A stretch of 13,714 nucleotides of DNA from a virus. The DNA is taken from UHGV virus genome UHGV-0183437, one strand, 5' to 3'. The notes beneath the pieces were generated by a model that saw only the letters and a list, made by a program, of their open reading frames with translations, did no database searches and was not told where the DNA came from. Shown one piece after another: positions 1 through 13,655 of the stretch; the first letter of the stretch is position 1; every line of letters starts with the position of its first letter. Made by a program: the position numbers and the translations under genes.

Positions 1-7
1 TATTGCA

Positions 8-30
8 GAGACCATTCAATGAGTGGTCTC
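8..30. other. Inverted repeat / potential RNA hairpin (about 10-bp stem including one G-U pair, 3-nt loop), no following U-tract
   Basis: GAGACCATTC (8-17) pairs with GAGTGGTCTC (21-30) around loop AAT. No T-run follows on either strand, so it is not a canonical intrinsic terminator. Confidence 0.35.
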
Positions 31-99
31 GACAATGGCTTATACCCTACACGGGATAACTTAACTGATATCCCTTTTAGCGGATAAACGGAGCCAACA

Positions 100-342
100 A
101 TGGCAGAGATTATTCCCATGACTGAAGAACAGAAATTCCAGTTAGAGATTTACAAACTGGTCATGAACCAGAACGCAGCCGCAGAAGAAGCATTTCAGTT
201 CATTGGCACTGACGAGCTGAAGCTTGAGCTATTCAAAATTCACTTCCAGTCAGGCGGCGCTAATTCAGATATCACGACCCGCACTATCGAAGCGGTGCGT
301 AAATCGAAGGAAGCGTTAGACCTGTTCACTACCGGAGCATAA
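100..342 (+). CDS. Small hypothetical protein (80 aa) immediately upstream of the terminase genes; positional analogue of P22 orf80
   Basis: Uninterrupted ORF with an ACGGAG Shine-Dalgarno about 7 nt before the ATG; stop at 340-342 lies 2 nt before the next ATG. Same strand and packing as the downstream operon. No motif I recognise. Confidence 0.55.
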   Translation: MAEIIPMTEEQKFQLEIYKLVMNQNAAAEEAFQFIGTDELKLELFKIHFQSGGANSDITTRTIEAVRKSKEALDLFTTGA

Positions 343-344
343 AC

Positions 345-788
345 ATGGCGCGCCCAACAAAGTATCAAGAGGCGTATGCCGAACAGGCACGCAAACTGTG
401 CTTGCTGGGCTATACAGACGCCGAACTCGCTGACTTCTTTGAAGTTAGCGAGGCAACAATCAACAATTGGAAATTGGAATATCCGGAGTTTTTAGAGTCC
501 ATAAAAAAGGGTAAGGCCGTCGCTGATGCAGAAGTTAGTGATCGTCTTTATCAACGCGCTATGGGCTTCGTGGCTCCAGACATCGATATTCGTGTTATTG
601 AAAACAGAATTGTCGAAACTCCGCTTAAGAAGTATTACCCGCCTGATACAACTGCCGCCATCTTCTGGCTCAAGAACAGACAGAAAGATAAATGGCGAGA
701 GAAGCAGGACGTCAACCATACATCTGATGACGGCTCCATGACTCCAAAAGCTCCAGTGTATAACATTGTAAAAAGCGAGACGCAATGA
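345..788 (+). CDS. Terminase small subunit (DNA-recognition subunit), not P22 gp3-type
   Basis: 147 aa. The N-terminal segment (YTDAELADFFEVSEATINNWK) looks like a helix-turn-helix, and the tail (AAIFWLKNRQKDKWREKQ) is typical of small-terminase families. ATGA overlap with the large terminase start at 785-788. Confidence 0.75.
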   Translation: MARPTKYQEAYAEQARKLCLLGYTDAELADFFEVSEATINNWKLEYPEFLESIKKGKAVADAEVSDRLYQRAMGFVAPDIDIRVIENRIVETPLKKYYPPDTTAAIFWLKNRQKDKWREKQDVNHTSDDGSMTPKAPVYNIVKSETQ

Positions 789-2263
789 CAGAGCAATGCA
801 GCATTCCTGAAGCGTTTGAGGAATACCTGCAGCCAGCCAGATTCAAGGTAGCTTATGGCGGGCGAGGTTCCGCCAAGACGCGAACGTTCATAACAATCCT
901 CCTCAATAACGTCATCTATCACGGATGGAAGCTTATCTGTTTTCGTGAGTACATGAAGTCCATCAAGGAATCATGCTATGCGGAAATTGTTGAAGAGATT
1001 AACCGCCGAAACCTCCACTCACTGGTGACTATCAATAAGACAGAGATATTTGCCAATAGCGGCGGACGTATCAGTTTCGACTTCCTGCGCCTTAACGTGG
1101 AAAATATCAAAGGTTACGCAAACTTCGATGCCGCCCTTGTAGAGGAAGCAGAAAACGTATCAAAGGACTCATGGGAAACGCTTATCCCAACGGTACGTAA
1201 AGAGTTCTACAGCGCTGAGTATGGTCGAGTGGTTGAGTCGGAAATATGGGTTGCATACAACCCGAAGAACAGACTCAGCGATACACATCAGCGCTTTGTT
1301 ACGAATCGCATATACCCCGACTATGACGAAAACGGTAATCGCTACTGCATCGTCAAGCAGATCAACTACACAGCTAATCCATGGTTCCCGGAAACTCTCC
1401 GCAGGGATATGGAGATTATGAAGAAGGCTAATCACGAGCTTTATCGGCATGTGTATCTTGGTGAACCGGTGGGGGCATCAGAAATGGCTATTATCAAGTT
1501 TGCATGGTTAGAGGCTGCAACAGACGCCCACATTAAGCTCGGATGGAAAGCTAAAGGTGCAGTGATTGCAGCGCATGACCCGTCAGACACCGGCCCAGAT
1601 GCCAAAGGATATGCAGTGCGACATGGATCAGTTGTTAAGCGCGTATGTGAAGGGCTGCTCATGGATATAAACGAGGGTGCTGATTGGGCATCTTCATTGG
1701 CGGTAATCGATGATGTTGATCATTTCCTGTTTGATGGAGATGGACTTGGAGCAGGGCTTCGTCGACAGATAACAGACTATTTCAGTGGAAAGAAAGTCAC
1801 CGTAACAATGTTTAAAGGTAGTGAATCGCCATTCGACGAAGATGCTCCATATCAGGCTGGGGCATGGACTGATGAAGTTGTGCAGGGTGATAACGTCCGC
1901 ACTATTGGAGATGTATTCCGAAACAAGCGAGCGCAGTTCTATTACACGCTGGCTGACAGGCTTTATCGAACATACCGGGCGGTAGAGCATGGTGAATACG
2001 CCGACCCTGATGAAATGCTTAGCTTTGACAAAGAGGCTATTGGAGAGAATATCCTCAACAAGCTATTCGCAGAGCTAACGCAGATCCAACGCAAATTCAA
2101 CGGCAACGGGAAGCTGGAGCTTATGACTAAGGTCGAAATGAAGCAGAAGCTCGGTATTCCATCTCCTAACCTGGCTGATGCGCTGATGATGTGTATGCAT
2201 TGCCCGGAGTCGGCTGCGCAACCCGACTATTCCAGTTACTCAATTCCTTGTGGTGTAGGTTGA
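785..2263 (+). CDS. Terminase large subunit (ATPase + nuclease)
   Basis: 492 aa. Walker A-like motif AYGGRGSAKT near the N-terminus (nt ~851-880), Walker B-like hydrophobic-D-E stretch (DAALVEEAE), and C-terminal acidic motifs (AAHDPSDTG, LFDGDGLGAG) consistent with an RNase H-like nuclease domain. Sits directly upstream of the portal gene. Confidence 0.93.
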   Translation: MTEQCSIPEAFEEYLQPARFKVAYGGRGSAKTRTFITILLNNVIYHGWKLICFREYMKSIKESCYAEIVEEINRRNLHSLVTINKTEIFANSGGRISFDFLRLNVENIKGYANFDAALVEEAENVSKDSWETLIPTVRKEFYSAEYGRVVESEIWVAYNPKNRLSDTHQRFVTNRIYPDYDENGNRYCIVKQINYTANPWFPETLRRDMEIMKKANHELYRHVYLGEPVGASEMAIIKFAWLEAATDAHIKLGWKAKGAVIAAHDPSDTGPDAKGYAVRHGSVVKRVCEGLLMDINEGADWASSLAVIDDVDHFLFDGDGLGAGLRRQITDYFSGKKVTVTMFKGSESPFDEDAPYQAGAWTDEVVQGDNVRTIGDVFRNKRAQFYYTLADRLYRTYRAVEHGEYADPDEMLSFDKEAIGENILNKLFAELTQIQRKFNGNGKLELMTKVEMKQKLGIPSPNLADALMMCMHCPESAAQPDYSSYSIPCGVG

Positions 2264-2264
2264 T

Positions 2265-4463
2265 ATGGCAGAAAAAAAGATGACTGACTGGCATCGCAAG
2301 GTGCTGTGCAACTTTGATAATGCATGGTCAGCAACGCAGGATATGCGTGAGCAGATTATTGAGGCTCAACGTTTCGTCCGGGTGTCCGGCGCACAGTGGG
2401 AAGGCAGCACAAACGCTGGTTACTCATTTGATGAAGGTAGGTTTGAGCATTACCCGCGCTTTGAACTGAATAAGATTGCCCGTGAATGTGATCGCATCAT
2501 TGGCGAGTATCGACAGAATCGCATCAGCGTTAAATTCAGGCCGAAGGACGATAAGGCATCGGAAGCGTTAGCCGAAAAGATGAACGGCAAATTCCGCGCT
2601 GACTATCAGGAAACATCCGGTGGCGAAGCGTGTGATAACGCATTTGATGATGCTGTAACGGGCGGATTCGGTTGTTTCCGCATGTGTGCCGATTACGAAG
2701 ATGAAATGGATCCGAGTAACGAGCAACGCCGTATAAGCCTTCTTCCTGTTTACGACCCAGCGACATGCGTCTTCTTCGATCAGGACAGCAAGCAATATGA
2801 CCGCTCTGATGCTATGTGGGCTATGGAAATGTTCTCCATGACGCCTAAAGCGTTCGAAGCTGAATACCCTGATTCCATCGCTGCAAGTCTTTCTCGTGAT
2901 GACACTGGCACTCAATATGACTGGTCAACTCCTGATGCTATCTATGTTGGTCGCTACTATGAAGTCCGCATAGAGAAGGTGAAGCTCACGGCGTGGCGCA
3001 ACCCTGTTAGCGGAGAAACGGCAATCTATGATGAAGAGCAAATCAAAGATATTGTCGACGAGCTAACCGATGGTGCATTCGAACTGATCGGTGAGCGAAC
3101 GGTGAAGAAACGCCGCGTTTATTGCGGTCTTCTGTCTGGCGCTGAATGGCTGGAAGAACCGAAGCGCATTCCGGGCGAACATATTCCTCTCATCCCGGTA
3201 TATGGGCGTCGTTCATTTGTTGATAATCAGGAGCGAATCGAAGGCCACGCAGCAAAAGCGATGGATGCACAGCGTCTTGAGAACCTGATGGTTTCCATGA
3301 TTGCAGATAACGCTACTCAGGCTGGCGGTGATGGCATTCCTGTAGTTGATGTTGACATGATTCCTGGTCCTCTCGCCACTCATTGGGCGGAGCGCAACAA
3401 AAAGCGCCCGGCGTTCCTGCCGATGGTCAGTCTGAAAAACAAAAACGGAGATATTACTGCGCAGGCTCAGGTCAGCAGTTATACGCCTCCGACACAAATG
3501 CCTCCAGCTCTTGCCGGGCTATTGCAGTACACCGGAACGGCTATTCAGCAAATTACAGGTGCGTCGCAGCTTGAGAACATGCCGAGCAACGTCGCCACCG
3601 ATACCGTTGATAGCATCTTTAACCGGATGGATACGCAGTCCTATATCTACATGGACAACATGGCTAAATCCATGCGTCGCGCTGGCGTTGTGTGGCTTTC
3701 TATGGCGCGTGAGGTCTATGGCAGTGATACGCCGATGCGTATCGTTAATGAGGACGGCAGCGATGACGTGGCGCTGATGACTGGTGAAGTGGTTGACCGT
3801 CAGACAGGGCAGGTTATCGCGCTTAATGACCTTTCGCAGGGCAACTATGAAGTGACTGTCGATGTCGGTCAGTCGTTCGCTACTCGCCGTGATGCAACGG
3901 TTAAGTCGTTACTTTCCATGCTGGCACTTATCCCACCAGGAACGCCGAAGCACGACCTTGTATCGTCGATGATTCTCGACAATATGGACGGCGAAGGGAT
4001 GGACGACCTTAAAGAATACAACCGCAATCAGTTGCTTCTGTCTGGAGTTATCAAGCCGAGAACACCAGAAGAACAGAAGATGGTTGAGCAGGCGAAACAA
4101 CAACAGGCCAGTCAGCCAGATCCGGCTATGGTTGCTGCGCAAGGTCAGCTTCTTGCTGGTCAGGCTGAATTGCAGAAAGCGCAGAACGAACAGGCAGCCA
4201 TTCAGGTTAAAGCATTCCAGGCACAGACTGATGCTCAGGTTGCAGCGGCAAATGTTGTGAAAATACTCGCATCTGCCGATAGTCAGCAGAAATCTGATAT
4301 CCGCGAGGCTCTGAAACTGCTCGGACAGTTCCAGCAACAGCAAGGAGACAATGCCCGTGCTGATGCAGAGCTTGTCCTGAAAAGTCAGGCACAGGGTCAT
4401 GCGCAGCGCATGGACATCAGCAGCATCCTGCAAAAATCAACTCAGCAACAACCACAGCAGTAA
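2265..4463 (+). CDS. Portal protein, P22 gp1-like, with long C-terminal Gln/Ala-rich helical extension
   Basis: 732 aa (P22 portal is about 725 aa). Recognisable P22-portal-like segments: KKRRVY, GEHIPLIPVYG, and the C-terminal PRTPEEQKMVEQAKQQQASQPDPAMVAAQGQLLAGQAELQKAQNEQ. Starts 1 nt after the terminase stop. Confidence 0.93.
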   Translation: MAEKKMTDWHRKVLCNFDNAWSATQDMREQIIEAQRFVRVSGAQWEGSTNAGYSFDEGRFEHYPRFELNKIARECDRIIGEYRQNRISVKFRPKDDKASEALAEKMNGKFRADYQETSGGEACDNAFDDAVTGGFGCFRMCADYEDEMDPSNEQRRISLLPVYDPATCVFFDQDSKQYDRSDAMWAMEMFSMTPKAFEAEYPDSIAASLSRDDTGTQYDWSTPDAIYVGRYYEVRIEKVKLTAWRNPVSGETAIYDEEQIKDIVDELTDGAFELIGERTVKKRRVYCGLLSGAEWLEEPKRIPGEHIPLIPVYGRRSFVDNQERIEGHAAKAMDAQRLENLMVSMIADNATQAGGDGIPVVDVDMIPGPLATHWAERNKKRPAFLPMVSLKNKNGDITAQAQVSSYTPPTQMPPALAGLLQYTGTAIQQITGASQLENMPSNVATDTVDSIFNRMDTQSYIYMDNMAKSMRRAGVVWLSMAREVYGSDTPMRIVNEDGSDDVALMTGEVVDRQTGQVIALNDLSQGNYEVTVDVGQSFATRRDATVKSLLSMLALIPPGTPKHDLVSSMILDNMDGEGMDDLKEYNRNQLLLSGVIKPRTPEEQKMVEQAKQQQASQPDPAMVAAQGQLLAGQAELQKAQNEQAAIQVKAFQAQTDAQVAAANVVKILASADSQQKSDIREALKLLGQFQQQQGDNARADAELVLKSQAQGHAQRMDISSILQKSTQQQPQQ

Positions 4464-4553
4464 TTAACCCATAACGTGCAATGGCTGTCTTTATGAGGCC
4501 TGGCACCCTATTGCCTTCCGATGGGCTGAACATCGAGTAAACAGGGGTAACAA

Positions 4554-5447
4554 ATGGACCAGATGGCAGAAAACACACCAGAAGTTGAAATCGAAACCGA
4601 CGCGTCAGAGCAGATTCCTGATGATGTCGAACTGGCTGAAGAAGTCGAAACAGAAGATGGCAGTGAGTCCTCCGGCAATGATGCAGAGGAAGCTACTGAA
4701 ACTGATGACGACGAATCAGAACAGGAATTCTACTTTGGTGACGAAAAGCTGGATTCGCCAACCAGCGAAGATGGCGCAGAGCATGGACTGGTAAAACACC
4801 TGCGCAAGACGATTAAAGAGAAAGACCGCGAGCTGAAAGAGCTGATGCGTCAGTCTCAGAAACCCGTCGAGCAGCAGCCGGTAATCACTCAACCACCGCG
4901 AATGCCAAAACTGGATGATGAGGACATCGGTTTCGATGAAGAAATCTATCAGCAACGCATGGCTAAGTGGGCAGAGGATAACGGAAAGTACCAGCAACAG
5001 GAGATGGCTCGCAAGCAGAAGGAGCAGGAGCTTCAGGCTGCCTATCAAGAGCGATTATCCAAATATCAGCAACGTGTTAAGGCTCTCAAAGTTCCTGGCT
5101 ATCAGGAAGCTGAGCAGGCCGTACTCGAGGAAATTCCCATCGAGACACAAAACGCGATCCTGTTTGAGTCAGAGAAGCCGGAAATCGTTGTTCTGGCGCT
5201 CGGTCGCAACGCTGAACTGCGCAAGCAACTGGCAGAAGCTACCAACCCCGTAGCAATTGGTCGTCTGCTGGAACGTATCGAATCGAAGGCCAGAATCATG
5301 CCAAAAGCAAAAACCACGGCAGCCACAACCCCGACAGTTAAGGGGAGCAACGGCGCAGTAATCAATAACCTCGACAAACTGAAAGCCAAGGCGCTGGAAA
5401 CTGGTGACTGGACGCCGTATTTCGCCGCTAAAAAGGCAAAAAAATAA
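4554..5447 (+). CDS. Scaffolding protein (P22 gp8-like)
   Basis: 297 aa (P22 gp8 is about 303 aa), located between portal and coat. Very acidic N-terminal ~80 aa, central charged and Gln-rich predicted coiled coil, basic C-terminal tail (DKLKAKALE...AAKKAKK) resembling the coat-binding C-terminus of P22 scaffold. AGGGG Shine-Dalgarno before the ATG. Confidence 0.8.
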   Translation: MDQMAENTPEVEIETDASEQIPDDVELAEEVETEDGSESSGNDAEEATETDDDESEQEFYFGDEKLDSPTSEDGAEHGLVKHLRKTIKEKDRELKELMRQSQKPVEQQPVITQPPRMPKLDDEDIGFDEEIYQQRMAKWAEDNGKYQQQEMARKQKEQELQAAYQERLSKYQQRVKALKVPGYQEAEQAVLEEIPIETQNAILFESEKPEIVVLALGRNAELRKQLAEATNPVAIGRLLERIESKARIMPKAKTTAATTPTVKGSNGAVINNLDKLKAKALETGDWTPYFAAKKAKK

Positions 5448-5465
5448 CCTATCGGAGCATTAAGC

Positions 5466-6719
5466 ATGGCTAACCAATTAGCAAAAGACCTTGAAATCAT
5501 GTTCGAAAACTACGTTGAAGGCTTTGAGGCCGCCTGCGTAGTTTCCCGTAACGCTAAAAAATTCCGTCCCGGTGATACAGCAATGCAGCGAGCAGGTGAT
5601 GTTCTGTATCGTCCGCAGCATTACCACATGAATATTGAAGAAGGCCTCGATCTCAGCAGCAAAACGCCAACAGCACTGGTTCAGCGCCTTGTTCCTTCTG
5701 TGTTCAAGGAGCCGAAAAACATTCTGTACACTCTGGATGCGCGTGAAATGCGTGACCCGGAACATAAAACTGAAGCTGGTCGCGCCGCAGGTATGCGCCT
5801 TGCTGCACAGATTGACTCTGACCTGATTTCCATGGTTACGCAGCGTGCTACTAACGTGATCACGATGGCTGACTCAACCACAGGTACACAGGGCCGTGAT
5901 TTGTGGAACTGTGCGGCAGGCATTGATGCCACCATGACGGCGATTGGTGTACCTCAGGGTATCAACCGTCGCTCTTTCTGGAACCCCTTCAACTACAAAG
6001 ATCTTGCTGGCGAGCTTGGTCACCGTGCCTATGCTCAGGGAGCAACCCTGACAGCATACGAAAAAGCGCAGATCCCTCCGGTTGCGTCCTTCGATAGCTA
6101 CAAGACCGATATTTCTGGTCGTGTTCCGAAGGGTACAGCAACTTCCCTGACGCTGGCGGCTGAACCTGCGCACAAGGTTGAAGCGAAAGATGCCAACGAT
6201 ATGCCAGTGGATAACCGACAGGGGACTATTACGGTATCTGCATCTGGGTTGCAGGTTGGCGATGCGTTCACCATTGCTGGCGTGAATTCTGTACACCAGA
6301 TCACCAAAGACACCACCGGGCAGCCGCAGGTATTCCGCGTTCTGGCAGTAAGCGGAACGACAGTAACTATCTCCCCGAAAATTCTGCCGCCTGACAACGC
6401 GGATGTCGCCAGCCGACCATATGCAAACGTTGATGCTAACGCGGCAAATGGTGCAGCAATTACCATTCTCAACAAAAATGCCGCACCGGCTAACCTATTC
6501 TGGGCTGATGGTTCTGTTGAGCTGATGTACGGCAAACTGGCGTTCCCGACTGGTCAGGGTCCACAGGTAATGACAGCAACCACCGAGCAGGGCGCTACGC
6601 TGATCATGTCTTACGCCTTCGACCACATCAAAGGCGTAACCACTGCTCGTTTCACCACTCTGTATGGTTGCTCTGTACTTGTTCCTGAATATACGGGCAT
6701 CGTTATTGCCGGGCAGTAA
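5466..6719 (+). CDS. Major capsid (coat) protein, P22 gp5-like fold with probable inserted domain
   Basis: 417 aa. Position after scaffold, size well above a minimal HK97 fold, and local resemblance to P22 coat (PYANVDAN and NLFWADG versus the P22 YANV / NVFWADD region as I recall it). Followed immediately by a strong terminator. Confidence 0.88.
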   Translation: MANQLAKDLEIMFENYVEGFEAACVVSRNAKKFRPGDTAMQRAGDVLYRPQHYHMNIEEGLDLSSKTPTALVQRLVPSVFKEPKNILYTLDAREMRDPEHKTEAGRAAGMRLAAQIDSDLISMVTQRATNVITMADSTTGTQGRDLWNCAAGIDATMTAIGVPQGINRRSFWNPFNYKDLAGELGHRAYAQGATLTAYEKAQIPPVASFDSYKTDISGRVPKGTATSLTLAAEPAHKVEAKDANDMPVDNRQGTITVSASGLQVGDAFTIAGVNSVHQITKDTTGQPQVFRVLAVSGTTVTISPKILPPDNADVASRPYANVDANAANGAAITILNKNAAPANLFWADGSVELMYGKLAFPTGQGPQVMTATTEQGATLIMSYAFDHIKGVTTARFTTLYGCSVLVPEYTGIVIAGQ

Positions 6720-6726
6720 TTTTGGT

Positions 6727-6749
6727 GGGGCTTCGGCCCCATTTTTATT
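6727..6749 (+). terminator. Rho-independent terminator / RNA-stabilising 3' hairpin after the coat gene
   Basis: GGGGC-TTCG-GCCCC (6727-6740): 5-bp GC stem with a UUCG tetraloop, followed directly by ATTTTTATT (6741-6749). Lies 8 nt after the coat stop codon. Confidence 0.7.
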
Positions 6750-6760
6750 GGGAGAAGACA

Positions 6761-6949
6761 ATGGCACGAACAATGCTCTATAAGCCGGGCAACATGATCA
6801 CCTCTGGTCAGTTTGCTGTCGATTACATCATTGTTGATGACGAAGAAGTTAAATCTCACCTGAAAAAAGGCTGGGTAAAAACTCCTGAAGAAACCGCAAC
6901 GAAGCAAAAAGTGGCTAAGGCGGAAGAAGATGGCGAAAACGAAGGGTGA
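6761..6949 (+). CDS. Small hypothetical protein (62 aa from ATG 6761), between coat and gp4-like gene; positional analogue of P22 orf69
   Basis: The ORF track opens this frame at 6722 (TTG), but that start lies inside the terminator hairpin. ATG at 6761 is preceded by GGGAG (6750-6754). Acidic C-terminus (AKAEEDGENEG). The 3' end overlaps the next gene by 20 nt in a different frame. Confidence 0.45.
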   Translation: MARTMLYKPGNMITSGQFAVDYIIVDDEEVKSHLKKGWVKTPEETATKQKVAKAEEDGENEG

Positions 6950-7391
6950 TCTCGTTCTTAAGGCTTTACGAAAAGCCGGGCTGTATTCCAATGCCACGTT
7001 GACAGATGCTGACCCTCAGGCAATTGAAGATGCCATTAATGACCTCGAAGACATGATGGCAGCATGGCAGGCTAAAGGTATCGAGCTTGGGTATCAGTTT
7101 GCTGATACAGAAAACGGCATCATGCCGTTACCGGACGATGATTCAGGTATCCCTGCATGGGCAAATGATGGCGTCGCTTTGAAACTCGCTGTGCAAGTGT
7201 GCATGGATAACGTCATTCAGCCGTCAGACGCTCTCCTTACCGCTGCTGACAGTGCATATCAGACAATCTGCATCGCTTTAACCAAAATACCACCACTTGA
7301 GCGGCGAAATGACATGCCTCGCGGTAGTGGTAACAAAAGCGCGTTTACGTGGAATCTGTTTTACATCGAGAAAGATGATCCGAGTACGTGA
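6930..7391 (+). CDS. Head completion / tail adaptor protein (P22 gp4-like)
   Basis: 153 aa. N-terminus MAKTKGDLVLKALRKAGLYSNATLTDADPQAIEDAINDLEDMMAAW closely follows the P22 gp4 N-terminal pattern as I recall it; position after the coat gene matches P22 order. Confidence 0.85.
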   Translation: MAKTKGDLVLKALRKAGLYSNATLTDADPQAIEDAINDLEDMMAAWQAKGIELGYQFADTENGIMPLPDDDSGIPAWANDGVALKLAVQVCMDNVIQPSDALLTAADSAYQTICIALTKIPPLERRNDMPRGSGNKSAFTWNLFYIEKDDPST

Positions 7392-7400
7392 GGTGAATAA

Positions 7401-8819
7401 ATGCCGATTCAGCAACTTCCGCTTATGAAAGGTGTCGGCAAAGACTTTCGAAACGCCGACTATATCGACTATCTGCCAGTGAATATGCTGGCTACACCCA
7501 AAGAAATACTCAACAGCAGCGGATATCTTCGCTCATTCCCGGGCATTGCCAAACGATCTGATGTGAACGGTGTATCGCGCGGCGTCGAGTACAACATGGC
7601 GCAGAATGCTGTTTATCGCGTGTGTGGCGGCAAGCTGTATAAGGGCGAAAGTGAAGTCGGTGATGTTGCCGGAAGTGGTCGCGTATCAATGGCGCATGGT
7701 CGGGCATCACAGGCGGTAGGCGTTAATGGTCAACTGGTCGAGTATCGTTATGATGGCGCGGTCAAAACCGTCTCAAACTGGCCTACAGACAGCGGATTCA
7801 CACAGTATGAGTTAGGTTCTGTTCGTGACATTACGCGCTTACGTGGGCGTTATGCGTGGTCAAAAGACGGCACTGATTCATGGTTTATTACTGACCTTGA
7901 AGACGAATCGCATCCTGACCGTTACAGCGCACAATATCGCGCAGAATCGCAGCCGGACGGCATCATCGGTATCGGCACATGGCGAGACTTCATCGTCTGC
8001 TTTGGTTCATCGACGATTGAGTATTTTTCCCTGACTGGTGCAACCACCGTTGGTGCCGCTTTGTATGTCGCACAGCCATCGCTGATGGTGCAGAAAGGTA
8101 TTGCCGGAACCTACTGTAAAACTCCATTCGCTGACTCGTATGCGTTCATCAGCAATCCGGCAACAGGTGCGCCGTCTGTATACATCATCGGATCCGGTCA
8201 GGTATCACCAATCGCCAGCGCGAGCATTGAGAAAATCCTTCGTTCCTACACTGCTGATGAACTGGCTGATGGCGTGATGGAATCGTTGCGGTTTGATGCT
8301 CATGAGTTGCTGATTATTCACCTGCCGCGCCATGTTCTTGTTTACGACGCATCTTCAAGCGCCAATGGTCCGCAATGGTGTGTGTTGAAAACAGGCCTGT
8401 ATGACGATGTGTACCGCGCTATCGACTTCATTTACGAAGGCAATCAGATAACGTGCGGCGATAAGCTGGAGTCCGTGACCGGGAAATTGCAATTCGACAT
8501 CAGCAGCCAGTACGACAAGCAACAGGAACACCTGCTGTTTACTCCACTGTTCAAAGCGGATAACGCCAGAGTGTTCGACCTTGAGGTTGAATCGTCAACT
8601 GGCGTTGCGCAGTATGCTGACCGCCTTTTTCTCTCTGCAACCACTGACGGCATCAATTACGGGCGTGAGCAGATGATTGAGCAGAATGAACCGTTCGTTT
8701 ACGACAAACGCGTTTTGTGGAAGAAAGTAGGGCGCATCAGGAAAAACATTGGTTTCAAATTGCGCGTTATCACGAAGTCACCTGTCACTCTGTCTGGCGC
8801 TCAGATAAGGATTGAGTAA
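7401..8819 (+). CDS. Tail hub / head completion protein (P22 gp10-like)
   Basis: 472 aa, the same length as P22 gp10, in the gp4-gp10-gp26 order. GAGGTGA Shine-Dalgarno 5 nt before the ATG. Stop overlaps the next start (TAATG). Confidence 0.85.
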
Positions 8820-9520
8820 TGGCGGATTCGAATCTCAATGTGCCGGTAATCATTCAGGCTACACGGCTCGACACATCAGTCCTTCCACGCAATATCTTCT
8901 CGCAGTCATATCTGCTTTACGTTATCGCACAGGGTACTGATGTTGGTAACGTGGCGAACAAGGCCAACGAGGCCGGACAGGGCGCTTATGACGCACAAGT
9001 CAGGAACGATGAGCAGGATGTGATTCTGGTCGATCACGAAGAAAGAATTCGTCAGCTCCGCATTGAAGTAGATGACCATGAAATCCGTATTGCTGCGAAT
9101 ACTGCGGCAATTGCAGAGCTGGATGTCAGACTAACCACGGCTGAAGGAGAAATAGTCACTTTACAGGCTGACGTCAGCGCTCTTGATGGCCGGGTTACGA
9201 CTGCTGAGAGCAACATTTCTGCATTACAGGACGACTATGTATCGAAAACAGCCACTGCAACACAATCGCTGGCATCTCCCCTCAATGTAACAACATCCTA
9301 TTCGGTCGGCGGCACCAAGGTTATTGGTGCTCGTCAGACAGGGTGGACAGCGGCTACAGGTACGGCTCTTCGCGGCTCATTCAACGCTAACCAGACATAC
9401 ACGGTAAGTGCCACATACACACGGTCTGAGGTGTCGGCTATGGCTACAGGATTGCAGCAGGCGCGGCAGCGTATCAAAGCTCTGGAAGATGCATTACGGA
9501 CTCATGGGTTGATTGACTGA
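8819..9520 (+). CDS. Tail needle (P22 gp26-like, short form without C-terminal knob)
   Basis: 233 aa, the same length as P22 gp26. Strong resemblance along the protein: N-terminus (VIIQATRLD...[21 protein letters not shown]), trimeric coiled-coil heptads in the middle, and C-terminal end ([14 protein letters not shown]). Confidence 0.93.
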
Positions 9521-9975
9521 TGATTACATTCAAACCAACGCGAAACATCGACCTGATAGAAGCAGTAGGAAATCACCCTGACATTATCGCCGGGAGCAAC
9601 AACGGTGATGGATACGACTACAAACCTGATTGCCGTTACTTTGAGGTGAACGTGCACGGGCAGTTCGGCGGCATTGTTTACTATCAGGAGATTCAGCCGC
9701 TTACATTCGATTGCCACGCCATGTACCTGCCAGAGGTTCGTGGATTCAGCAAGGAAATCGGGCTGGCGTTCTGGCGATACATTCTGACTAACACCACCGT
9801 TCAGTGCGTCACATCGTTCGCCGCACGCAAATTCCGCCACGGGCAGATTTACTGCGCAATGATTGGCCTTAAGCGTGTCGGAACCATCAAGAAATACTTC
9901 AAAGGCGTGGATGACGTGACGTTTTACAGCGCCACACGCGAAGAACTAATCGACTTCCTGAATCACGGGAGATAG
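9520..9975 (+). CDS. Probable virion assembly protein (P22 gp14 positional analogue)
   Basis: 151 aa ORF between the needle gene and the first ejection-protein gene, as in P22 order 26-14-7-20-16. Start overlaps the upstream stop (TGATG). Assigned by synteny and size only. Confidence 0.65.
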   Translation: MITFKPTRNIDLIEAVGNHPDIIAGSNNGDGYDYKPDCRYFEVNVHGQFGGIVYYQEIQPLTFDCHAMYLPEVRGFSKEIGLAFWRYILTNTTVQCVTSFAARKFRHGQIYCAMIGLKRVGTIKKYFKGVDDVTFYSATREELIDFLNHGR

Positions 9976-9977
9976 CC

Positions 9978-10670
9978 ATGTTATATGCATTTAAGCTGGG
10001 CAGAAAGCTGCGCGGAGAGGAACCTTATTGCCCTGAAAAAGGCGGGAAAGGTGGCAGTTCTGATAAAAGTGCAAAGTATGCAGCAGAAGCTCAGAAGTAT
10101 GCCGCAGACCTGCAAAATCAGCAGTTCAACACCATCATGAACAACCTGAAGCTGTTTACTCCTCTGGCTGATAAGTATGTCGGCAGCCTCGAGAACTTAT
10201 CGTCTCTGGAAGGGCAAGGTCAGGCACTTAACCAGTATTACAACTCTCAGCAGTACAAAGATCTTGCAGGTCAGGCTCGCTATCAGAGTCTGGCGGCAGC
10301 AGAGGCAACGGGTGGATTAGGCTCTACAGCAACAGGAAACCAGTTAGCAACAATCGCACCAACGCTTGGTCAGCAATGGCTGTCTGGTCAGATGAACAAC
10401 TACCAGAATCTGGCAAATATTGGTCTTGGCGCACTGCAAGGTCAGGCAAACGCCGGGCAGACATATGCCAACAACATGAGTCAGATTTCGCAGCAAAGTG
10501 CGGCTCTTGCAGCGGCAAATGCCAACAGACCATCAGCAATGCAATCTGCTATTGGCGGAGGTGCGTCTGGTGCTATTGCTGGGGCCAGACTTGCGAAATT
10601 AATTGGTTCATCAACTCCGTGGGGGGCTGCGATCGGCGGCGGTCTTGGTCTGCTTGGCTCGTTGTTTTAA
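9978..10670 (+). CDS. Ejection (internal virion) protein, P22 gp7-like
   Basis: 230 aa (P22 gp7 is about 229 aa). Gln/Asn/Ala-rich body and glycine-rich hydrophobic C-terminus (AIGGGASGAIAGARLAKLIGSSTPWGAAIGGGLGLLGSLF). Position matches gene 7. Confidence 0.75.
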   Translation: MLYAFKLGRKLRGEEPYCPEKGGKGGSSDKSAKYAAEAQKYAADLQNQQFNTIMNNLKLFTPLADKYVGSLENLSSLEGQGQALNQYYNSQQYKDLAGQARYQSLAAAEATGGLGSTATGNQLATIAPTLGQQWLSGQMNNYQNLANIGLGALQGQANAGQTYANNMSQISQQSAALAAANANRPSAMQSAIGGGASGAIAGARLAKLIGSSTPWGAAIGGGLGLLGSLF

Positions 10671-10680
10671 GGGGTAATCA

Positions 10681-12060
10681 ATGGCTACGTGGCAACAGGG
10701 TATTAATTCTGGTGGTTTTCTGGCTGGCATCGGTACGCAAAATGAGAATGCGCCAAAGGCAAGCGACATTAACGCAACGCTTGGTCTGATCCGCGAAAAC
10801 AATGAACTGGCTCGCTCAGGTGTAAATAACGTTGGCCTGACCGCGTTACGTGGTCTGGCTGGAGTTGCTGATATTTACAATCAGGAACAGCAACAGAAAG
10901 CTATTAGTGCGTTCAATAAGGTTCACGCTGATGCATGGGCTTCTGGTGATCCATCGGGACTATTTAAGTTTGCCCAGGAAAATCCAGCGTTTGTTGCACA
11001 GGCACAACAGGCGTTTTCCGGTCTTAATGATCAGCAACGCAACGATATGGGCGATTTAGCCATGAGGGCTAACGTCGCTCTTTCTCAGGGACCGGAAGCC
11101 TACAGTAAATTCATTACTGACAACAAGGACAGGTTAAATCGCGTTGGTGCTAATGCTGACTGGATGATTCAGACAGGTATCCAGAATCCAGAGCAGCTAT
11201 CACACATGCTGACTACTATGTCTCTCGGTGCGCTTGGACCAGAAAAGGCGTTTGCTGTTCAGGACAAAATGGCTGGTCGTGAGATTGACCGAGGAAGACT
11301 GGCAGAGACAATCCGCAGCAATCAGGCTGGCGAGGCGCTAACAGCGCGTGGTCAGAATATCACGATGCGCGGTCAGGATTTATCGATGCAGAGAGCATCA
11401 ATGAAAGGGGCGGTTGGGAATAATGAGCGTACAGTTCAGTTAGCAGATGGCAGAACTGTAACGGTAGGCGGGAAGCTTCACGGCGCTGGGGCTAATGCGT
11501 TCTACGAAGGTATCGACAACGAGGGGAATATGGTTCGCGTCCCTGCTGGCTCTATTGCCGCTCCGGCTACATCGGCAGCAAGCGCGCAGAATTACGCAAT
11601 GAAGAAAGATCTTGATGCAATTTCTGGTGCATCAATTGACGATCTTGGCTTCATGACTGGCATTACAGGCTCTTCAGGTTCTCCTGCTCTTGGTGCAGAT
11701 ATTCGTAGCCGTGCATCTGGTGGTGATCAGAGGAAACTATACAACGCTGCACAGCGAATCCAAGGAAAGATGCAGAATCAGGGCATTGCAGCAGCCAGAG
11801 ACATGGGGGCATCCGGTATCAACACCGTTGCAGAAGCAAAGATGTATTTTCAAGGTATGCCACAGGTTGATTTCTCAAGCCCTGAAGCACTGCAACAATC
11901 AATGCGCGACATTAAGCAATATACCGACAATTACAACCAGCAATATAACGTTAATGTCGGTAATGGAGGGAAGAAATCATCAATGCAACAGCCGCCTACT
12001 CAGCAATCAGCAGGAGGTAGCTACACGTCAAAATCAGGCATTCAATTTACGGTGGAATGA
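10681..12060 (+). CDS. Ejection (internal virion) protein, P22 gp20-like
   Basis: 459 aa (P22 gp20 is about 471 aa). Gly/Ala/Gln-rich, low-complexity Q/N-rich C-terminus. AAGGGG Shine-Dalgarno upstream. ATGA overlap with the next gene at 12057-12060. Confidence 0.75.
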
Positions 12061-13655
12061 TGAAAGTAACTGCAAACGGTAAGACATTTACCTTCCCTGA
12101 TGGTACGAGCACCGAAGATATTGGCACCGCTATTGATGAGTATTTTGCTGGTCAGGCTGTTCAGCAACAAACAGTTAATCAGGCCAATAATGAACCAGCA
12201 CGTGAAGAACCATCATTGATGCAACAAGCTGGCGATTGGCTCACAGGTGGTCAAAGTGCAGGGCAAATTGCAGAGCAGGCTGGTCGTGGTCTGGTAAACA
12301 TACCATTTGACGTATTGCAGGGTGGCGCAAGTCTGATTAATGCAATCAGCCAGGGGCTTGGTGGCCCCAAGGTTTTGGACGATGTCTATCGTCCAGTAGA
12401 TCGACCAACAGACCCTTATGCGCAAGCTGGAGAAACAATTGGTGGGTATTTAGTTCCAGGAGTTGGAACGGCAGGAAGCATGGCTATTGGATCGCTGGCA
12501 GAGGCCGCAAATCAGAAAGGCGATTTCGCACAAAATGCAGCTAAAAATGCCGGAGTTAACCTTGCCGCTCAGGGTGTTCTTTCCGCAGCAGCAAAGGGAA
12601 TAGGGCGTGGAATAACGGCTATAAAAGGTGATATTGCGCCAGAAGTGGCGAAGAAAATTGCCACATCAGAATCGATGGGCGTGACACCAATGACATCTGA
12701 TGTTATCCCGCCGAAAAATGCTTTCACTCGCGGCCTTACTCAGGATGCCGAGGGGGCTTTGCTCGGGACGGGCTCAAAGCGAGCAGAGCAATATGCAACG
12801 CGTAGTAAGCTGGTAAGCAATTATTTTGACCGTTTTGGTGAGTACAACCCTGATGATGTGGTGAAATCTCTGACCACCACGTTAAGGGGGCGGAAGGATG
12901 CTGCTGGCGCTGTTATCAATGACGTCACCAATAAAATGGGTAATGCCGCAGTTGATACTACAAATACCATGAATGCTCTGAATACAGCGATCGCAAGACA
13001 GGAACGGCTTGGGACTTCAGCCAATCAAAGCCTGCTTACATCCTTGCGTAACCTGCGTGAAGAATTAGCAAACCCTGCAACTGATTTGGATGTTACGTTT
13101 GATCTCTTGCGTCAGCACAGAACAGCATTTAGATCTAATGTTCAGGGAGATGCTATGGTCTTCCCCAACCAGGCAAAAGCAGCTACCAATATGGTAGAGA
13201 ATGCAATGTCAAAAGACCTTCGTAACGCAGTTGCTAAAAACCTCGGTGCATCAGACGCAGCAAAATACCTTAAAGCAAATTCCGATTATGCAAACGTTTA
13301 TAATAAGGTGCTTAATAAAAACATTGCCAACAAGCTCAACAAGGCAAGCAGTGAAGCCAGTCCTGAACTTATAAATACCGTTGTATTAAGCAGAAAACCA
13401 TCTGACGTAAAACGAATCTGGAGCGCACTGGATGATAAGGGGAAAGATGCTATGCGTGCAGCTTACGTCAGCAAAATAGCGGAAAAGACCGGGGACTCTC
13501 CAGCCAAGTTCATCACTGAAGTTAATAAGCTGAAATCTCAGTCAGGCGGTGAAATTTACAACACTATTTTTTCTGGAAAGCACATGAAAGAGCTTGATGC
13601 TCTTCATGAAGTTCTACAGCAAACAGCAAGGTCAGATGATCTTACCCAGCAATAG
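12057..13655 (+). CDS. Ejection (internal virion) protein, P22 gp16-like
   Basis: 532 aa, third in the run of three ejection-protein genes; Ala/Gly/Gln-rich N-terminal half. Shorter than P22 gp16 (about 609 aa). Assigned by synteny and composition. Confidence 0.75.

What the first reader, a model, noticed from the sequence alone, without database searches (positions are those of the whole stretch)
345..2263. Mosaic packaging module: non-P22-type terminase pair joined to a P22-like portal and head genes
The portal, gp4, gp10 and needle proteins show recognisable P22-like sequence, but the small and large terminase subunits do not resemble P22 gp3/gp2 as I recall them. The large subunit has an N-terminal GGRGSAKT Walker A, more typical of a different terminase clade. 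P22-like phages are known to exchange terminase genes. A different small subunit implies a different pac recognition sequence, which is usually embedded in or near the small terminase gene, and therefore different headful-packaging and generalised-transduction behaviour.
Basis: partly seen in the sequence, partly recalled or inferred. Interest (0 to 1): 0.45.

Follow-up and report, generated by a model that had tools for sequence, protein, structure and literature searches.

The report
Domain-swapped terminase in CUS-3-like prophage
The DNA-packaging enzyme of this E. coli P22-like prophage is indeed not the P22 type, but it is the known CUS-3/Sf6 type in which the end of the small subunit and the ATPase half of the large subunit were replaced together, a tidy example of known phage mosaicism.

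Summary
ORFs 345-788 (TerS, 147 aa) and 785-2263 (TerL, 492 aa) have no BLASTP similarity to P22 gp3/gp2, fall in different Pfam families, and the P22 pac sequence is absent.

There is no joint between TerL and the portal. Portal (35% identity), coat (29%), gp4 (41%) and scaffold (no hit) are just as un-P22-like. The block 345-7391 is CUS-3-type (portal 99.5% to CUS-3).

The real mosaic lies inside the two terminase genes:
- **S1, 345-~704:** CUS-3-type TerS body.
- **S2, ~705-1438:** TerS C-terminal tail plus TerL ATPase domain from another Terminase_3 lineage. It is 40% identical to Sf6/CUS-3 and 86-97% to Citrobacter and Providencia prophages and a non-P22-like prophage.
- **S3, 1439-~2113:** a diverged Sf6/CUS-3-type nuclease core.
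- **S4, ~2114 onward:** TerL C-tail plus portal, about 97.5% identical to CUS-3.

Across about 150 loci, the TerS tail tracks the ATPase type (20/20 and 83/83), and the last 13 residues of TerL track the portal type (55/55 and 46/46). Interacting parts travel together.

Packaging specificity is inferred to be CUS-3-type. The variant is rare in E. coli (7 of 5,426 genomes) and absent from 50,697 phage records. It is ordinary in kind, with modest interest.

The parts
100..342 (+). orf80 / DUF2560 gene directly upstream of terS. It is 98.8% aa identical to P22 Orf80 and 100% to CUS-3 hkbM, and marks the left edge of the block that differs from P22.
   Evidence: Pfam DUF2560 E 1.1e-43; tblastn against P22 and CUS-3.
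345..704 (+). Segment S1: TerS body (residues 1-120), CUS-3-type. The model shows an HTH (residues 9-45), a long core helix (47-73), a beta-hairpin stalk (75-98) and a helix (102-112). It is the presumed pac-recognition and oligomerisation module, and the presumed location of pac (inferred).
   Evidence: 90% aa to CUS-3 TerS over residues 1-131. 94.9% nt to CUS-3 and 98.3% to L108 over window nt 1-704. phrog_309 terminase small subunit E 7.4e-65. AF2 model pLDDT 75.8. Foldseek gives weak TerS-like hits: 2AO9, and Sf6 gp1 3HEF/4DZJ.
705..788 (+). Segment S2a: TerS C-terminal tail 'type A' (residues 121-147, QDVNHTSDDGSMTPKAPVYNIVKSETQ) plus stop codon. It is predicted unstructured and inferred to be the TerL-docking peptide. 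It replaces the CUS-3/Sf6 tail ...GKDGGAIQIETSPMSTLFGK.
   Evidence: Alignment to CUS-3. The same tail sits on unrelated TerS bodies next to the same ATPase type. The tail is 95% conserved against 72.5% for the body in 27 divergent homologs. pLDDT is below 60 from residue ~121.
785..1438 (+). Segment S2b: TerL ATPase domain 'type A' (residues 1-218). Walker A GGRGSAKT is at nt 857-880 and Walker B/catalytic ALVEEAE at nt 1133-1153. It carries two insertions relative to Sf6 gp2.
   Evidence: Pfam Terminase_3 E 5.6e-37. Identity is 40% to Sf6/CUS-3 but 97% to Citrobacter L142, 92% to Providencia P0002 and 86% to P0012. nt identity to CUS-3 is 0.31-0.48 in 745-1444. The best cultured phages reach 53-58%.
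1439..2113 (+). Segment S3: TerL linker and nuclease-domain core, Sf6/CUS-3 lineage but a diverged allele. The candidate active-site motifs AHDPSDTG (nt 1571-1594), FDGDGLGAG (1730-1756) and NLADALMM (2168-2191, just beyond this segment) are conserved. The left joint lies in the conserved YLGEPV stretch (nt 1454-1471).
   Evidence: The C-terminal half is 88% aa to CUS-3 and 87% to Sf6 gp2, but 33-36% to the type-A lineage's own nuclease domains. The PDB 5C10 nuclease construct aligns from query residue 220. There are 23% nt mismatches to CUS-3 here against 2.5% after 2114.
2114..2263 (+). Segment S4a: TerL C-terminal end including the last 13 residues PDYSSYSIPCGVG (nt 2222-2260). It is nearly identical to CUS-3 and inferred to be the portal-docking tail.
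   Evidence: One mismatch to CUS-3 in 2114-2288. The C-terminal 13-mer type tracks the portal type: 55/55 for CUS-3-type and 46/46 for Sf6-type.
2265..4463 (+). Segment S4b: portal protein, CUS-3-type. It is 99.5% aa to CUS-3, 55% to Sf6 and 35% to P22.
   Evidence: Pfam P22_portal E 9.5e-170; BLASTP and tblastn.

Best explanation
The window is the late operon of a CUS-3-like P22-like (Lederbergvirus-type) E. coli prophage. Its terminase is a functional chimera built from four segments with different histories.

1. A CUS-3-type TerS body binds the phage's own pac site, presumably inside terS, and forms the oligomeric ring.
2. A flexible TerS C-terminal tail (SDDGSMTPKAPVYNIV) and the TerL ATPase domain were imported together from a second lineage of Terminase_3 large terminases. 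The tail docks TerS onto that ATPase domain.
3. An Sf6/CUS-3-lineage nuclease domain cuts the concatemer.
4. A CUS-3-type TerL C-terminal tail docks the motor onto the CUS-3-type portal.

The most parsimonious history has two steps.
- An older recombination at the ATPase-nuclease linker (conserved YRHVYLGEPV) created the type-A-ATPase/Sf6-type-nuclease TerL now spread in P22-like prophages of Citrobacter, Providencia and other Enterobacterales.
- A later replacement of ~1.4 kb (~705-2113) moved it into a CUS-3-like E. coli phage. The crossovers left the pac-specifying TerS body and the portal-docking TerL tail untouched.

The phage should therefore package by the headful mechanism with CUS-3-type pac specificity, which is neither P22's nor Sf6's.

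**Shown here:** the segment boundaries, the lineage affinities and the co-variation.
**Inferred:** tail-ATPase and C-tail-portal docking, the location of pac, headful packaging, and activity of the chimera.
For: **Segment boundaries.**
- BLASTN to CUS-3 covers window 1-704 (94.9%) and 1439-3763 (91.4%), with no match between them.
- 100-nt identity profiles against six relatives show the same steps.
- Mismatch density to CUS-3 is 23% in 1439-2113 and 2.5% after 2114.

**Lineage of the cassette.**
- ATPase domain: 92% to Providencia P0002, 86% to P0012, 62-64% to P0018/P0019, but 40% to Sf6/CUS-3.
- Nuclease domain: 88% to CUS-3 and 87% to Sf6, but 33-36% to P0012/P0018/P0019.
- P0012 sits in a lambdoid prophage with Phage_portal_3, Mu_F and E217-like tail genes.

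**The joint coincides with the structural domain boundary.** The Sf6 gp2 nuclease construct 5C10 starts at query residue ~220.

**TerS tail tracks the ATPase type.**
- 20/20 loci with a type-A ATPase (>=90% identity) have tail A.
- 83/83 loci with an Sf6-type ATPase have tail B.
- Both tails occur within each of two BLAST clusters of TerS bodies: a cluster holding the CUS-3-, Sf6- and GP3_package-type bodies, and a Terminase_2 cluster.

**Predictions tested.**
- Tail A in Citrobacter goes with a type-A ATPase (97%).
- Tail C in Salmonella goes with an unrelated 486-aa TerL.
- Tail D goes with an unrelated 558-aa TerL.
- Cultured marine phages with type-A-lineage ATPases (55-57%) also carry tail-A-like ends.

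**The tail is constrained.** It is 95% conserved against 72.5% for the body and is predicted unstructured.

**TerL C-terminus tracks the portal.** 55/55 and 46/46. An otherwise unrelated Salmonella TerL shares its last 12 residues with P22 gp2 beside a P22-type portal.

**Literature.**
- The TerS C-terminus binds the TerL N-terminus. In P22, TerS residues 140-162 bind TerL residues 1-58 (PMC9611059; PMC13595956).
- pac lies inside gene 3 in P22-like phages (PMC8022706, citing Wu 2002 and Leavitt 2013).

**Not an assembly artefact.** The same 1,919 bp occurs at 97-99.5% in 7 complete E. coli genomes and in IMG/VR contigs L014-L020.
Against: - No experiment or structure here shows that tail A touches the type-A ATPase domain. 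Co-variation could partly reflect physical linkage, because the tail codons abut terL and short adjacent DNA tends to co-transfer.
- The high conservation of the tail could reflect recent spread of one cassette rather than selection.
- The loci are not phylogenetically independent. The 20/20 and 83/83 counts overstate the number of independent events; the independent evidence is the handful of different TerS bodies carrying each tail.
- Whether the prophage is active is unknown. In strain TST3 an ISKpn26 element sits in the replication region.
- pac has not been located, and I know of no mapping of pac or packaging ends in CUS-3 or phages with a CUS-3-type TerS (none searched for here).
- The order and direction of the recombination events are inferred from identity levels only.
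- I could not read Casjens & Thuman-Commike 2011, Leavitt et al. 2013 or Casjens & Grose 2016, so this cassette may already be catalogued there.
Confidence: 0.8

Rival explanations
1. A complete foreign terminase gene pair was dropped as one unit into an otherwise P22-type virion module, with the joint between terL and the portal gene. This would give a pac specificity unlike that of the phage's relatives.
For: TerS and TerL have no BLASTP similarity to P22 gp3/gp2. orf80, immediately upstream, is 98.8% identical to P22's, so there is a sharp joint to P22-like sequence at the left end of terS.
Against: There is no joint at the terL/portal boundary: nt ~2114-3763 is about 97.5% identical to CUS-3 across it. 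Portal (35%), coat (29%), gp4 (41%) and scaffold (no hit) are not P22-type either. The TerS body and TerL nuclease half are the same types as in the closest relative, CUS-3.
Confidence: 0.05
2. There was no recombination. The TerS tail and TerL ATPase domain diverged rapidly in situ from the CUS-3/Sf6 versions, for example under selection to escape a terminase-targeting defence or satellite.
For: The type-A and Sf6-type ATPase domains are homologous: both are Terminase_3, 40% identical and alignable throughout.
Against: Identity steps are abrupt, from 95% to ~40% to ~78% to ~97.5% within a few tens of bases. The same ATPase domain is 86% identical in a prophage whose nuclease domain, portal and tail genes are of a different type. 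It is 53-58% identical in marine siphophages. In-situ divergence cannot produce that pattern.
Confidence: 0.03
3. The co-variation of TerS tail with TerL ATPase domain is a by-product of adjacency, not of a physical interaction. The tail codons lie within 80 bp of terL, so any exchange with a crossover in the conserved 'AAIFWLKNRQxDKWRDK' coding stretch carries both. The tail itself could serve another role, such as DNA binding as proposed for the P22 gp3 tail.
For: A strongly conserved nucleotide stretch (651-690) lies just upstream of the joint in 38 unique alleles. It is shared by bodies carrying at least 8 different tails, which makes it a plausible recombination hot spot. [quoted passage not shown]
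Against: No locus in about 100 shows a tail mismatched to its ATPase type. The tail motif persists on TerS bodies that lack that linker sequence (Terminase_2 and GP3_package types). It also persists down to 55% ATPase identity. The tail is more conserved than the folded body. P22 biochemistry maps TerL binding to the TerS tail (PMC9611059).
Confidence: 0.15

Closest known systems
Phage CUS-3 (E. coli K1 prophage, CP000711) packaging and procapsid module
   Same: Same gene order. The TerS body is 90% aa identical (nt 1-704 at 94.9%). The TerL nuclease half is 88% aa identical with an identical C-terminal 13-mer. Portal is 99.5%, scaffold 99.7%, coat 95%, gp4 99% and gp10 98% identical.
   Different: TerS residues 121-147 are unrelated. 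The TerL ATPase domain is only 40% identical and carries two insertions, giving 492 against 471 aa. The nuclease core is a diverged allele with 23% nt mismatches. The needle and the gp20- and gp16-like proteins are closer to P22 than to CUS-3.
Phage Sf6 terminase (gp1 TerS, PDB 3HEF; gp2 TerL, PDB 4IDH), an experimentally studied headful packager
   Same: TerL is in the same family: Terminase_3, with phmmer E 7.5e-192 to 4IDH. The nuclease domain is 87% identical. Walker A is in the same place and the Walker B ...VEEAE is the same.
   Different: The TerS body is a different family (Sf6_terminase, PF20901, against a CUS-3-type/phrog_309 body) with no BLASTP hit. TerS tail B is replaced by tail A. 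The ATPase domain is 40% identical. The TerL C-terminal tail and portal are of a different type, with portal at 55%.
Phage P22 terminase (gp3/gp2) and its mapped TerS-tail : TerL-N-terminus interaction
   Same: The working logic is probably the same. TerS recognises pac inside its own gene. A flexible TerS C-terminal tail binds the N-terminal part of TerL. The TerL C-terminus binds the portal. Packaging is headful (PMC9611059, PMC13595956, PMC8022706). The flanking genes orf80 and gp10 through gp16 are 76-99% identical to P22.
   Different: There is no detectable sequence similarity for TerS or TerL. The Pfam families differ (GP3_package; Terminase_6N/6C). The P22 pac sequence is absent.
Type-A-lineage Terminase_3 large terminases of non-P22-like phages (metagenomic prophage P0012/L008; Vibrio phage 1.214.O; Pseudoalteromonas phages H40/1 and C7)
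   Same: The ATPase domain is 86% identical to P0012 and 53-58% to the marine phages. Their TerS proteins end in the same tail motif.
   Different: Their nuclease domains are only 33-36% identical to the window's. Their portals are Phage_portal_3-type, and their virion modules are not P22-like.

Membership tests
P22-type terminase (gp3 + gp2) | TerS belongs to the gp3 family (Pfam GP3_package, PF16677) or shows sequence similarity to P22 gp3 | tested here: not met
   No BLASTP hit to P22 gp3. P22 gp3 hits PF16677 at E 3.5e-33; window TerS does not.
P22-type terminase (gp3 + gp2) | TerL belongs to the gp2 family (Pfam Terminase_6N + Terminase_6C) | tested here: not met
   No BLASTP hit to P22 gp2. 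P22 gp2 is Terminase_6N/6C; window TerL is Terminase_3.
P22-type terminase (gp3 + gp2) | The 22-bp P22 pac site lies inside terS | tested here: not met
   GAAGATTTATCTGAAGTCGTTA has 0 matches in the window at up to 3 mismatches.
Sf6/CUS-3-type large terminase (Terminase_3 / PBSX family, Sf6 gp2 fold) | N-terminal ASCE ATPase domain matching Terminase_3, with Walker A and Walker B motifs | tested here: met
   PF04466 E 5.6e-37 over residues 19-227. GGRGSAKT at residues 25-32 and ALVEEAE at 117-123. However, it is only 40% identical to Sf6/CUS-3, so it belongs to a separate lineage within the family.
Sf6/CUS-3-type large terminase (Terminase_3 / PBSX family, Sf6 gp2 fold) | C-terminal RNase H-like nuclease domain homologous to Sf6 gp2 residues ~214-470 | tested here: met
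   87-88% identical to Sf6 and CUS-3. phmmer to the 5C10 nuclease construct gives E 5.4e-146. The acidic motifs are conserved.
CUS-3-type small terminase | Full-length similarity to CUS-3 TerS, including its C-terminal tail (...GKDGGAIQIETSPMSTLFGK) | tested here: not met
   Residues 1-120 are 90%+ identical, but residues 121-147 are unrelated. The body is a member; the tail is not.
Canonical TerS architecture (HTH, helical oligomerisation core, stalk, flexible C-terminal moiety; PMC9611059) | Predicted fold has those four regions and resembles solved TerS structures | tested here: inconclusive
   The AF2 model (pLDDT 75.8) has an HTH at 9-45, a helix at 47-73, a beta-hairpin at 75-98, a helix at 102-112 and an unstructured 113-147. 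Foldseek matches are weak: 2AO9 at E 0.025; Sf6 gp1 at prob 0.96 with TM 0.36-0.45; none at E <= 0.001. There is no PDB sequence hit. phrog_309 'terminase small subunit' gives E 7.4e-65.
Headful (pac) packaging phages | Circularly permuted, terminally redundant virion DNA with a packaging series starting at pac | not testable with these tools
   Inferred only from TerL homology to Sf6 gp2 and from the P22-like virion module. It needs virion DNA.
P22-like phages (Lederbergvirus-type virion assembly module) | P22-family portal, coat, gp4 and gp10 in the conserved order | tested here: met
   P22_portal E 9.5e-170, P22_CoatProtein E 1.3e-75, P22_Tail-4 E 2.1e-40, Phage_stabilise E 4.7e-299. 93% nt to phiv205-1 and CUS-3 over most of the window.

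The most novel reading that the evidence does not exclude
The ~16-residue TerS end S-[DE]-DGSMTP-x-APVY-x-[IV]-V may be a portable docking peptide specific for one lineage of Terminase_3 ATPase domains. It appears on several different TerS bodies in P22-like prophages, a prophage with E217-like tail genes and cultured marine phages.

More generally, TerS proteins would be two-part adaptors. One body here carries at least 8 alternative tails, so the tail sequence would predict the TerL partner.

That would give a sequence-level handle on the TerS:TerL interface, for which the reviews read here report only low-resolution structures. It would also suggest a way to re-target pac specificity, and hence generalised transduction, by body/tail grafting.
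Probability: 0.5. Interest if true: 0.45.

Novelty: new member of a known kind. Interest (0 to 1): 0.3.

Why it matters
For annotation, the terminase here should be named CUS-3/Sf6-family. The TerS is currently labelled 'hypothetical protein' or even 'HNH homing endonuclease' in public records. Its packaging specificity should be predicted from the TerS body, which is CUS-3-type, and not from TerL.

For phage biology, the locus is a clean natural experiment. Recombination joints fall at the TerS body/tail boundary, at the TerL ATPase/nuclease linker and just before the TerL C-terminal tail. Each interacting pair (TerS tail with ATPase domain, TerL tail with portal) is inherited together without exception in about 100 loci.

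This supports the interaction map established biochemically for P22. It also nominates a specific short peptide for structural work on the TerS:TerL complex.

It is an illustration of known principles, not a new kind of system.

Tried and rejected
**Papers that could not be read.** Casjens & Thuman-Commike 2011 has no PMC id in the reference list I read and was not attempted. The following are not held in the library: Leavitt et al. 2013 (PMC3643300), McNulty 2015 (PMC4587339), Zhao 2013 (PMC3657791), Casjens & Grose 2016 (PMC4969182) and Roy 2012 (PMC3563279). What I say about their content rests on citing papers and on memory.

**Searches that returned little.**
- PDB sequence search with TerS: no hit even at E 10.
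- Foldseek of the TerS model against PDB: only weak matches, none at E <= 0.001. The fold class is therefore not settled.
- Genome-contig scan with the ATPase-domain alignment: only 3 loci.

**Attempts to locate pac.**
- No repeats beyond chance-level 11-mers in 300-900.
- P22 pac is absent.
- Nucleotide conservation among 38 unique terS alleles picks out 345-410, 483-518 and 651-690. It cannot separate pac from coding or recombination constraints, so no pac call is made.

**Method problems.**
- Single-linkage clustering of TerS bodies at E 1e-5 merged the CUS-3-, Sf6- and GP3_package-type bodies into one cluster. The count of independent body families is therefore conservative, and rests partly on Pfam/PHROG assignments.
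- A first pass at TerS calling in the Sf6-type set picked 12 out-of-frame ORFs. This was corrected.

**Considered and not run.** The large representative HMMER search was judged unnecessary.
Full report
**1. What is in the window**

The 13.7-kb window is a single + strand late operon:

| Gene | Coordinates |
|---|---|
| orf80 / DUF2560 | 100-342 |
| TerS | 345-788 |
| TerL | 785-2263 |
| portal | 2265-4463 |
| scaffold | 4554-5447 |
| coat | 5466-6719 |
| gp4 | 6930-7391 |
| gp10 | 7401-8819 |
| needle gp26 | 8819-9520 |
| gp14 | 9520-9975 |
| three ejection proteins | 9978-13655 |

Megablast places it among P22-like phages. The best matches are E. coli phages phiv205-1 and CUS-3, at about 93% over 77-83% of the window. 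The terminase region occurs at 97-99.5% in 7 of 5,426 complete E. coli genomes, most of them from pigs or pork. There it sits in a lambdoid prophage.

**2. Checking the observation**

- GGRGSAKT is at TerL residues 25-32.
- BLASTP finds no similarity between the window TerS and P22 gp3 or Sf6 gp1, and none between TerL and P22 gp2.
- The Pfam families differ. P22 gp3 is GP3_package and P22 gp2 is Terminase_6N/6C. Window TerL is Terminase_3 (E 5.6e-37). Window TerS has only a sub-threshold HTH match.
- The annotated 22-bp P22 pac sequence is absent at up to 3 mismatches.

So the statement that this is not a P22-type terminase is confirmed.

**3. Why the proposed mosaic joint is wrong**

Against P22 the window proteins score as follows:

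| Protein | Identity to P22 |
|---|---|
| orf80 | 98.8% |
| TerS, TerL, scaffold | no hit |
| portal | 35% |
| coat | 29% |
| gp4 | 41% |
| gp10 | 93% |
| gp26 | 76% |
| gp14 | 92% |
| gp7 / gp20 / gp16 | 87 / 82 / 76% |

The portal and head genes are therefore just as far from P22 as the terminase context suggests. The block that differs from P22 runs from terS to gp4.

Against CUS-3 the same genes are 95-99.7% identical. The TerL 3' end and the portal are one continuous stretch of about 97.5% nt identity. There is no joint between terL and the portal gene.

**4. The real mosaic**

Compared with CUS-3, similarity is 94.9% over nt 1-704, absent over 705-1438, and resumes at 1439. Within the resumed part, mismatch density is 23% up to 2113 and 2.5% afterwards.

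At protein level:
- TerS residues 1-120 are CUS-3-type, while residues 121-147 are unrelated.
- TerL residues 1-218 are about 40% identical to CUS-3/Sf6, with two insertions.
- The C-terminal half of TerL (from ~residue 236) is 88% identical, and the last 13 residues are identical.

The left joint lies at the end of a strongly conserved coding stretch (AAIFWLKNRQKDKWR). The middle joint lies in the conserved YRHVYLGEPV segment. That segment coincides with the ATPase/nuclease boundary of the Sf6 gp2 structure: the 5C10 nuclease construct aligns from query residue 220.

**5. Where the cassette comes from**

The ATPase domain has these affinities:
- 97% identical to TerL of P22-like prophages in Citrobacter (L142, L143).
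- 92% to a Providencia prophage (P0002).
- 86% to P0012.

P0012 has an unrelated nuclease domain (33% identical). Its genomic neighbours are Phage_portal_3, Mu_F and E217-like tail genes in a lambdoid prophage. Among 50,697 phage records the closest ATPase domains are 53-58% identical, from marine Pseudoalteromonas and Vibrio phages.

Two Terminase_3 lineages are thus about 35-40% apart in both domains. The window TerL has the ATPase half of one and the nuclease half of the other.

The identity profile shows that S2 and S3 together resemble the Citrobacter-type chimeric TerL at 79-95%. The simplest history has two steps. An older ATPase/nuclease recombination spread in Enterobacterales P22-like prophages. 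A later ~1.4-kb replacement (~705-2113) then moved it into a CUS-3-like E. coli phage.

**6. Co-variation, the main functional evidence**

*TerS tails.* TerS proteins next to type-A ATPase domains end in S-[DE]-DGSMTP-x-APVY-x-[IV]-V whatever their body:
- CUS-3-type in the window.
- GP3_package-type in Providencia.
- Three different Terminase_2-type bodies in L008, L009 and L010.

TerS proteins next to Sf6-type ATPase domains end in GKDGGAIQIETSPMSTLFGK, on CUS-3-type, Sf6-type and Terminase_2-type bodies.

Counts are 20/20 and 83/83 with no mismatch. More distant type-A-lineage loci keep a degenerate version of the tail.

*Alternative tails on one body.* Among the 120 closest database homologs of the window TerS, the same body carries at least eight different tails.

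*Three predictions tested.*
- Tail A in Citrobacter sits next to a type-A ATPase (97%).
- Tail C in Salmonella sits next to an unrelated 486-aa TerL.
- Tail D sits next to an unrelated 558-aa TerL.

*Cultured phages.* Two cultured marine phages with type-A-lineage ATPases also have tail-A-like ends.

*Constraint.* The tail is predicted unstructured. Yet it is 95% conserved where the body is 72.5% conserved.

*TerL C-terminus and portal.* The last 13 residues of TerL track the portal type: 55/55 for CUS-3-type and 46/46 for Sf6-type. The unrelated Salmonella TerL shares its last 12 residues with P22 gp2, next to a 97.7% P22-type portal.

**7. Mechanism**

These patterns match what is established for P22 and other phages.
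- The TerS C-terminus binds the TerL N-terminus. In P22, TerS residues 140-162 bind TerL residues 1-58.
- Only low-resolution TerS:TerL structures exist (PMC9611059, PMC13595956).
- In P22-like phages pac lies inside the TerS gene (PMC8022706).

I therefore read the window terminase as a working chimera. A CUS-3-type TerS body selects pac. Tail A recruits the type-A ATPase domain. The Sf6/CUS-3-type nuclease domain cuts. The CUS-3-type TerL tail docks on the CUS-3-type portal.

Walker A, Walker B and the conserved acidic nuclease motifs are intact.

The anatomy and co-variation are shown. The contacts, the pac location, headful packaging and activity are inferred. Packaging specificity should equal CUS-3's.

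**8. Caveats**

- The loci are related, so the counts are not independent events.
- The tail abuts terL, so linkage alone contributes to co-transfer.
- Tail conservation may reflect recent spread of one cassette.
- The key primary papers on P22-like terminase mosaicism could not be read. I cannot exclude that this cassette is already catalogued there.
- The TerS fold assignment is weak.

**9. Verdict**

The feature is a rare E. coli member of a known kind, the mosaic terminase modules of P22-like phages. Its specific domain combination is absent from sequenced cultured phages. The principle, exchange at domain boundaries with interacting parts travelling together, is established (recalled from Casjens & Thuman-Commike 2011, which I could not read), so interest is modest. 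The added value is a clean sequence-level definition of a candidate TerL-docking peptide.

Noticed in passing
window 8819-9520, 10681-12060, 12057-13655: The needle (gp26) and the gp20- and gp16-like ejection proteins are closer to P22 (76%, 82%, 76% aa) than to CUS-3 (66%, 77% partial, 43%). The genes around them (gp10, gp14) are 98-99% CUS-3-like. There are therefore further mosaic joints downstream of the finding.
   Followed up: partly
window 100-344: orf80/DUF2560 is 98.8% identical to P22 Orf80 and ends 2 nt before a terS with no similarity to P22 gp3. Relative to P22 this is a sharp gene-boundary joint.
   Followed up: partly
window 651-690 (also 345-410 and 483-518): These are the least variable nucleotide stretches, third codon positions included, among 38 unique CUS-3-type terS alleles. 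651-690 encodes AAIFWLKNRQK, immediately before the body/tail joint, and is shared by bodies carrying at least 8 different tails. It is a candidate recombination linker. One of these stretches could instead hold pac.
   Followed up: partly
window 413-494: A patch of 24 mismatches in 82 nt against CUS-3 RS218 lies inside the otherwise near-identical terS body (TerS residues ~23-50, the predicted HTH region). The changes are mostly synonymous. The same allele occurs with the Sf6-type tail in IMG/VR locus L108, at 98.3% over nt 1-704.
   Followed up: no
L140 4938-6398 (Salmonella prophage) against P22 gp2: A 486-aa TerL with no Pfam match and no similarity to P22 gp2 over its body nevertheless ends in the same 12 residues as P22 gp2 (IPAPIRPVRRGR). 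It sits next to a 97.7% P22-type portal and a CUS-3-type TerS body with yet another tail.
   Followed up: partly
public records for the homologs of window 345-788: The CUS-3-type TerS is annotated 'HNH homing endonuclease' in phages phiv205-1, vB_EcoP-611R6 and vB_EcoP-683R2. It is 'hypothetical protein' in most RefSeq E. coli genomes and in phiKp_30. These are probably mis- or under-annotations.
   Followed up: no
L145 3125-4922 (E. coli TST3 prophage, upstream of the region matching the window): An IS5-family element (ISKpn26) is inserted in the replication region, next to a truncated ATP-binding (replication) gene. At least this copy of the prophage may be defective.
   Followed up: no
window 857-880: Walker A is GGRGSAKT, with alanine where the classical motif has glycine before the lysine. 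A review reports the same deviation for SPP1 (PMC13595956). Close relative P0012 has the canonical GGRGSGKT, so the position varies within the lineage.
   Followed up: partly
L056-L058 (IMG/VR contigs with distant type-A-lineage TerL): The ORF directly upstream of terL ends in an HNH-like motif (…CPTCNTRKSAKHP…) instead of being a TerS. This is the familiar HNH-terminase pairing.
   Followed up: no
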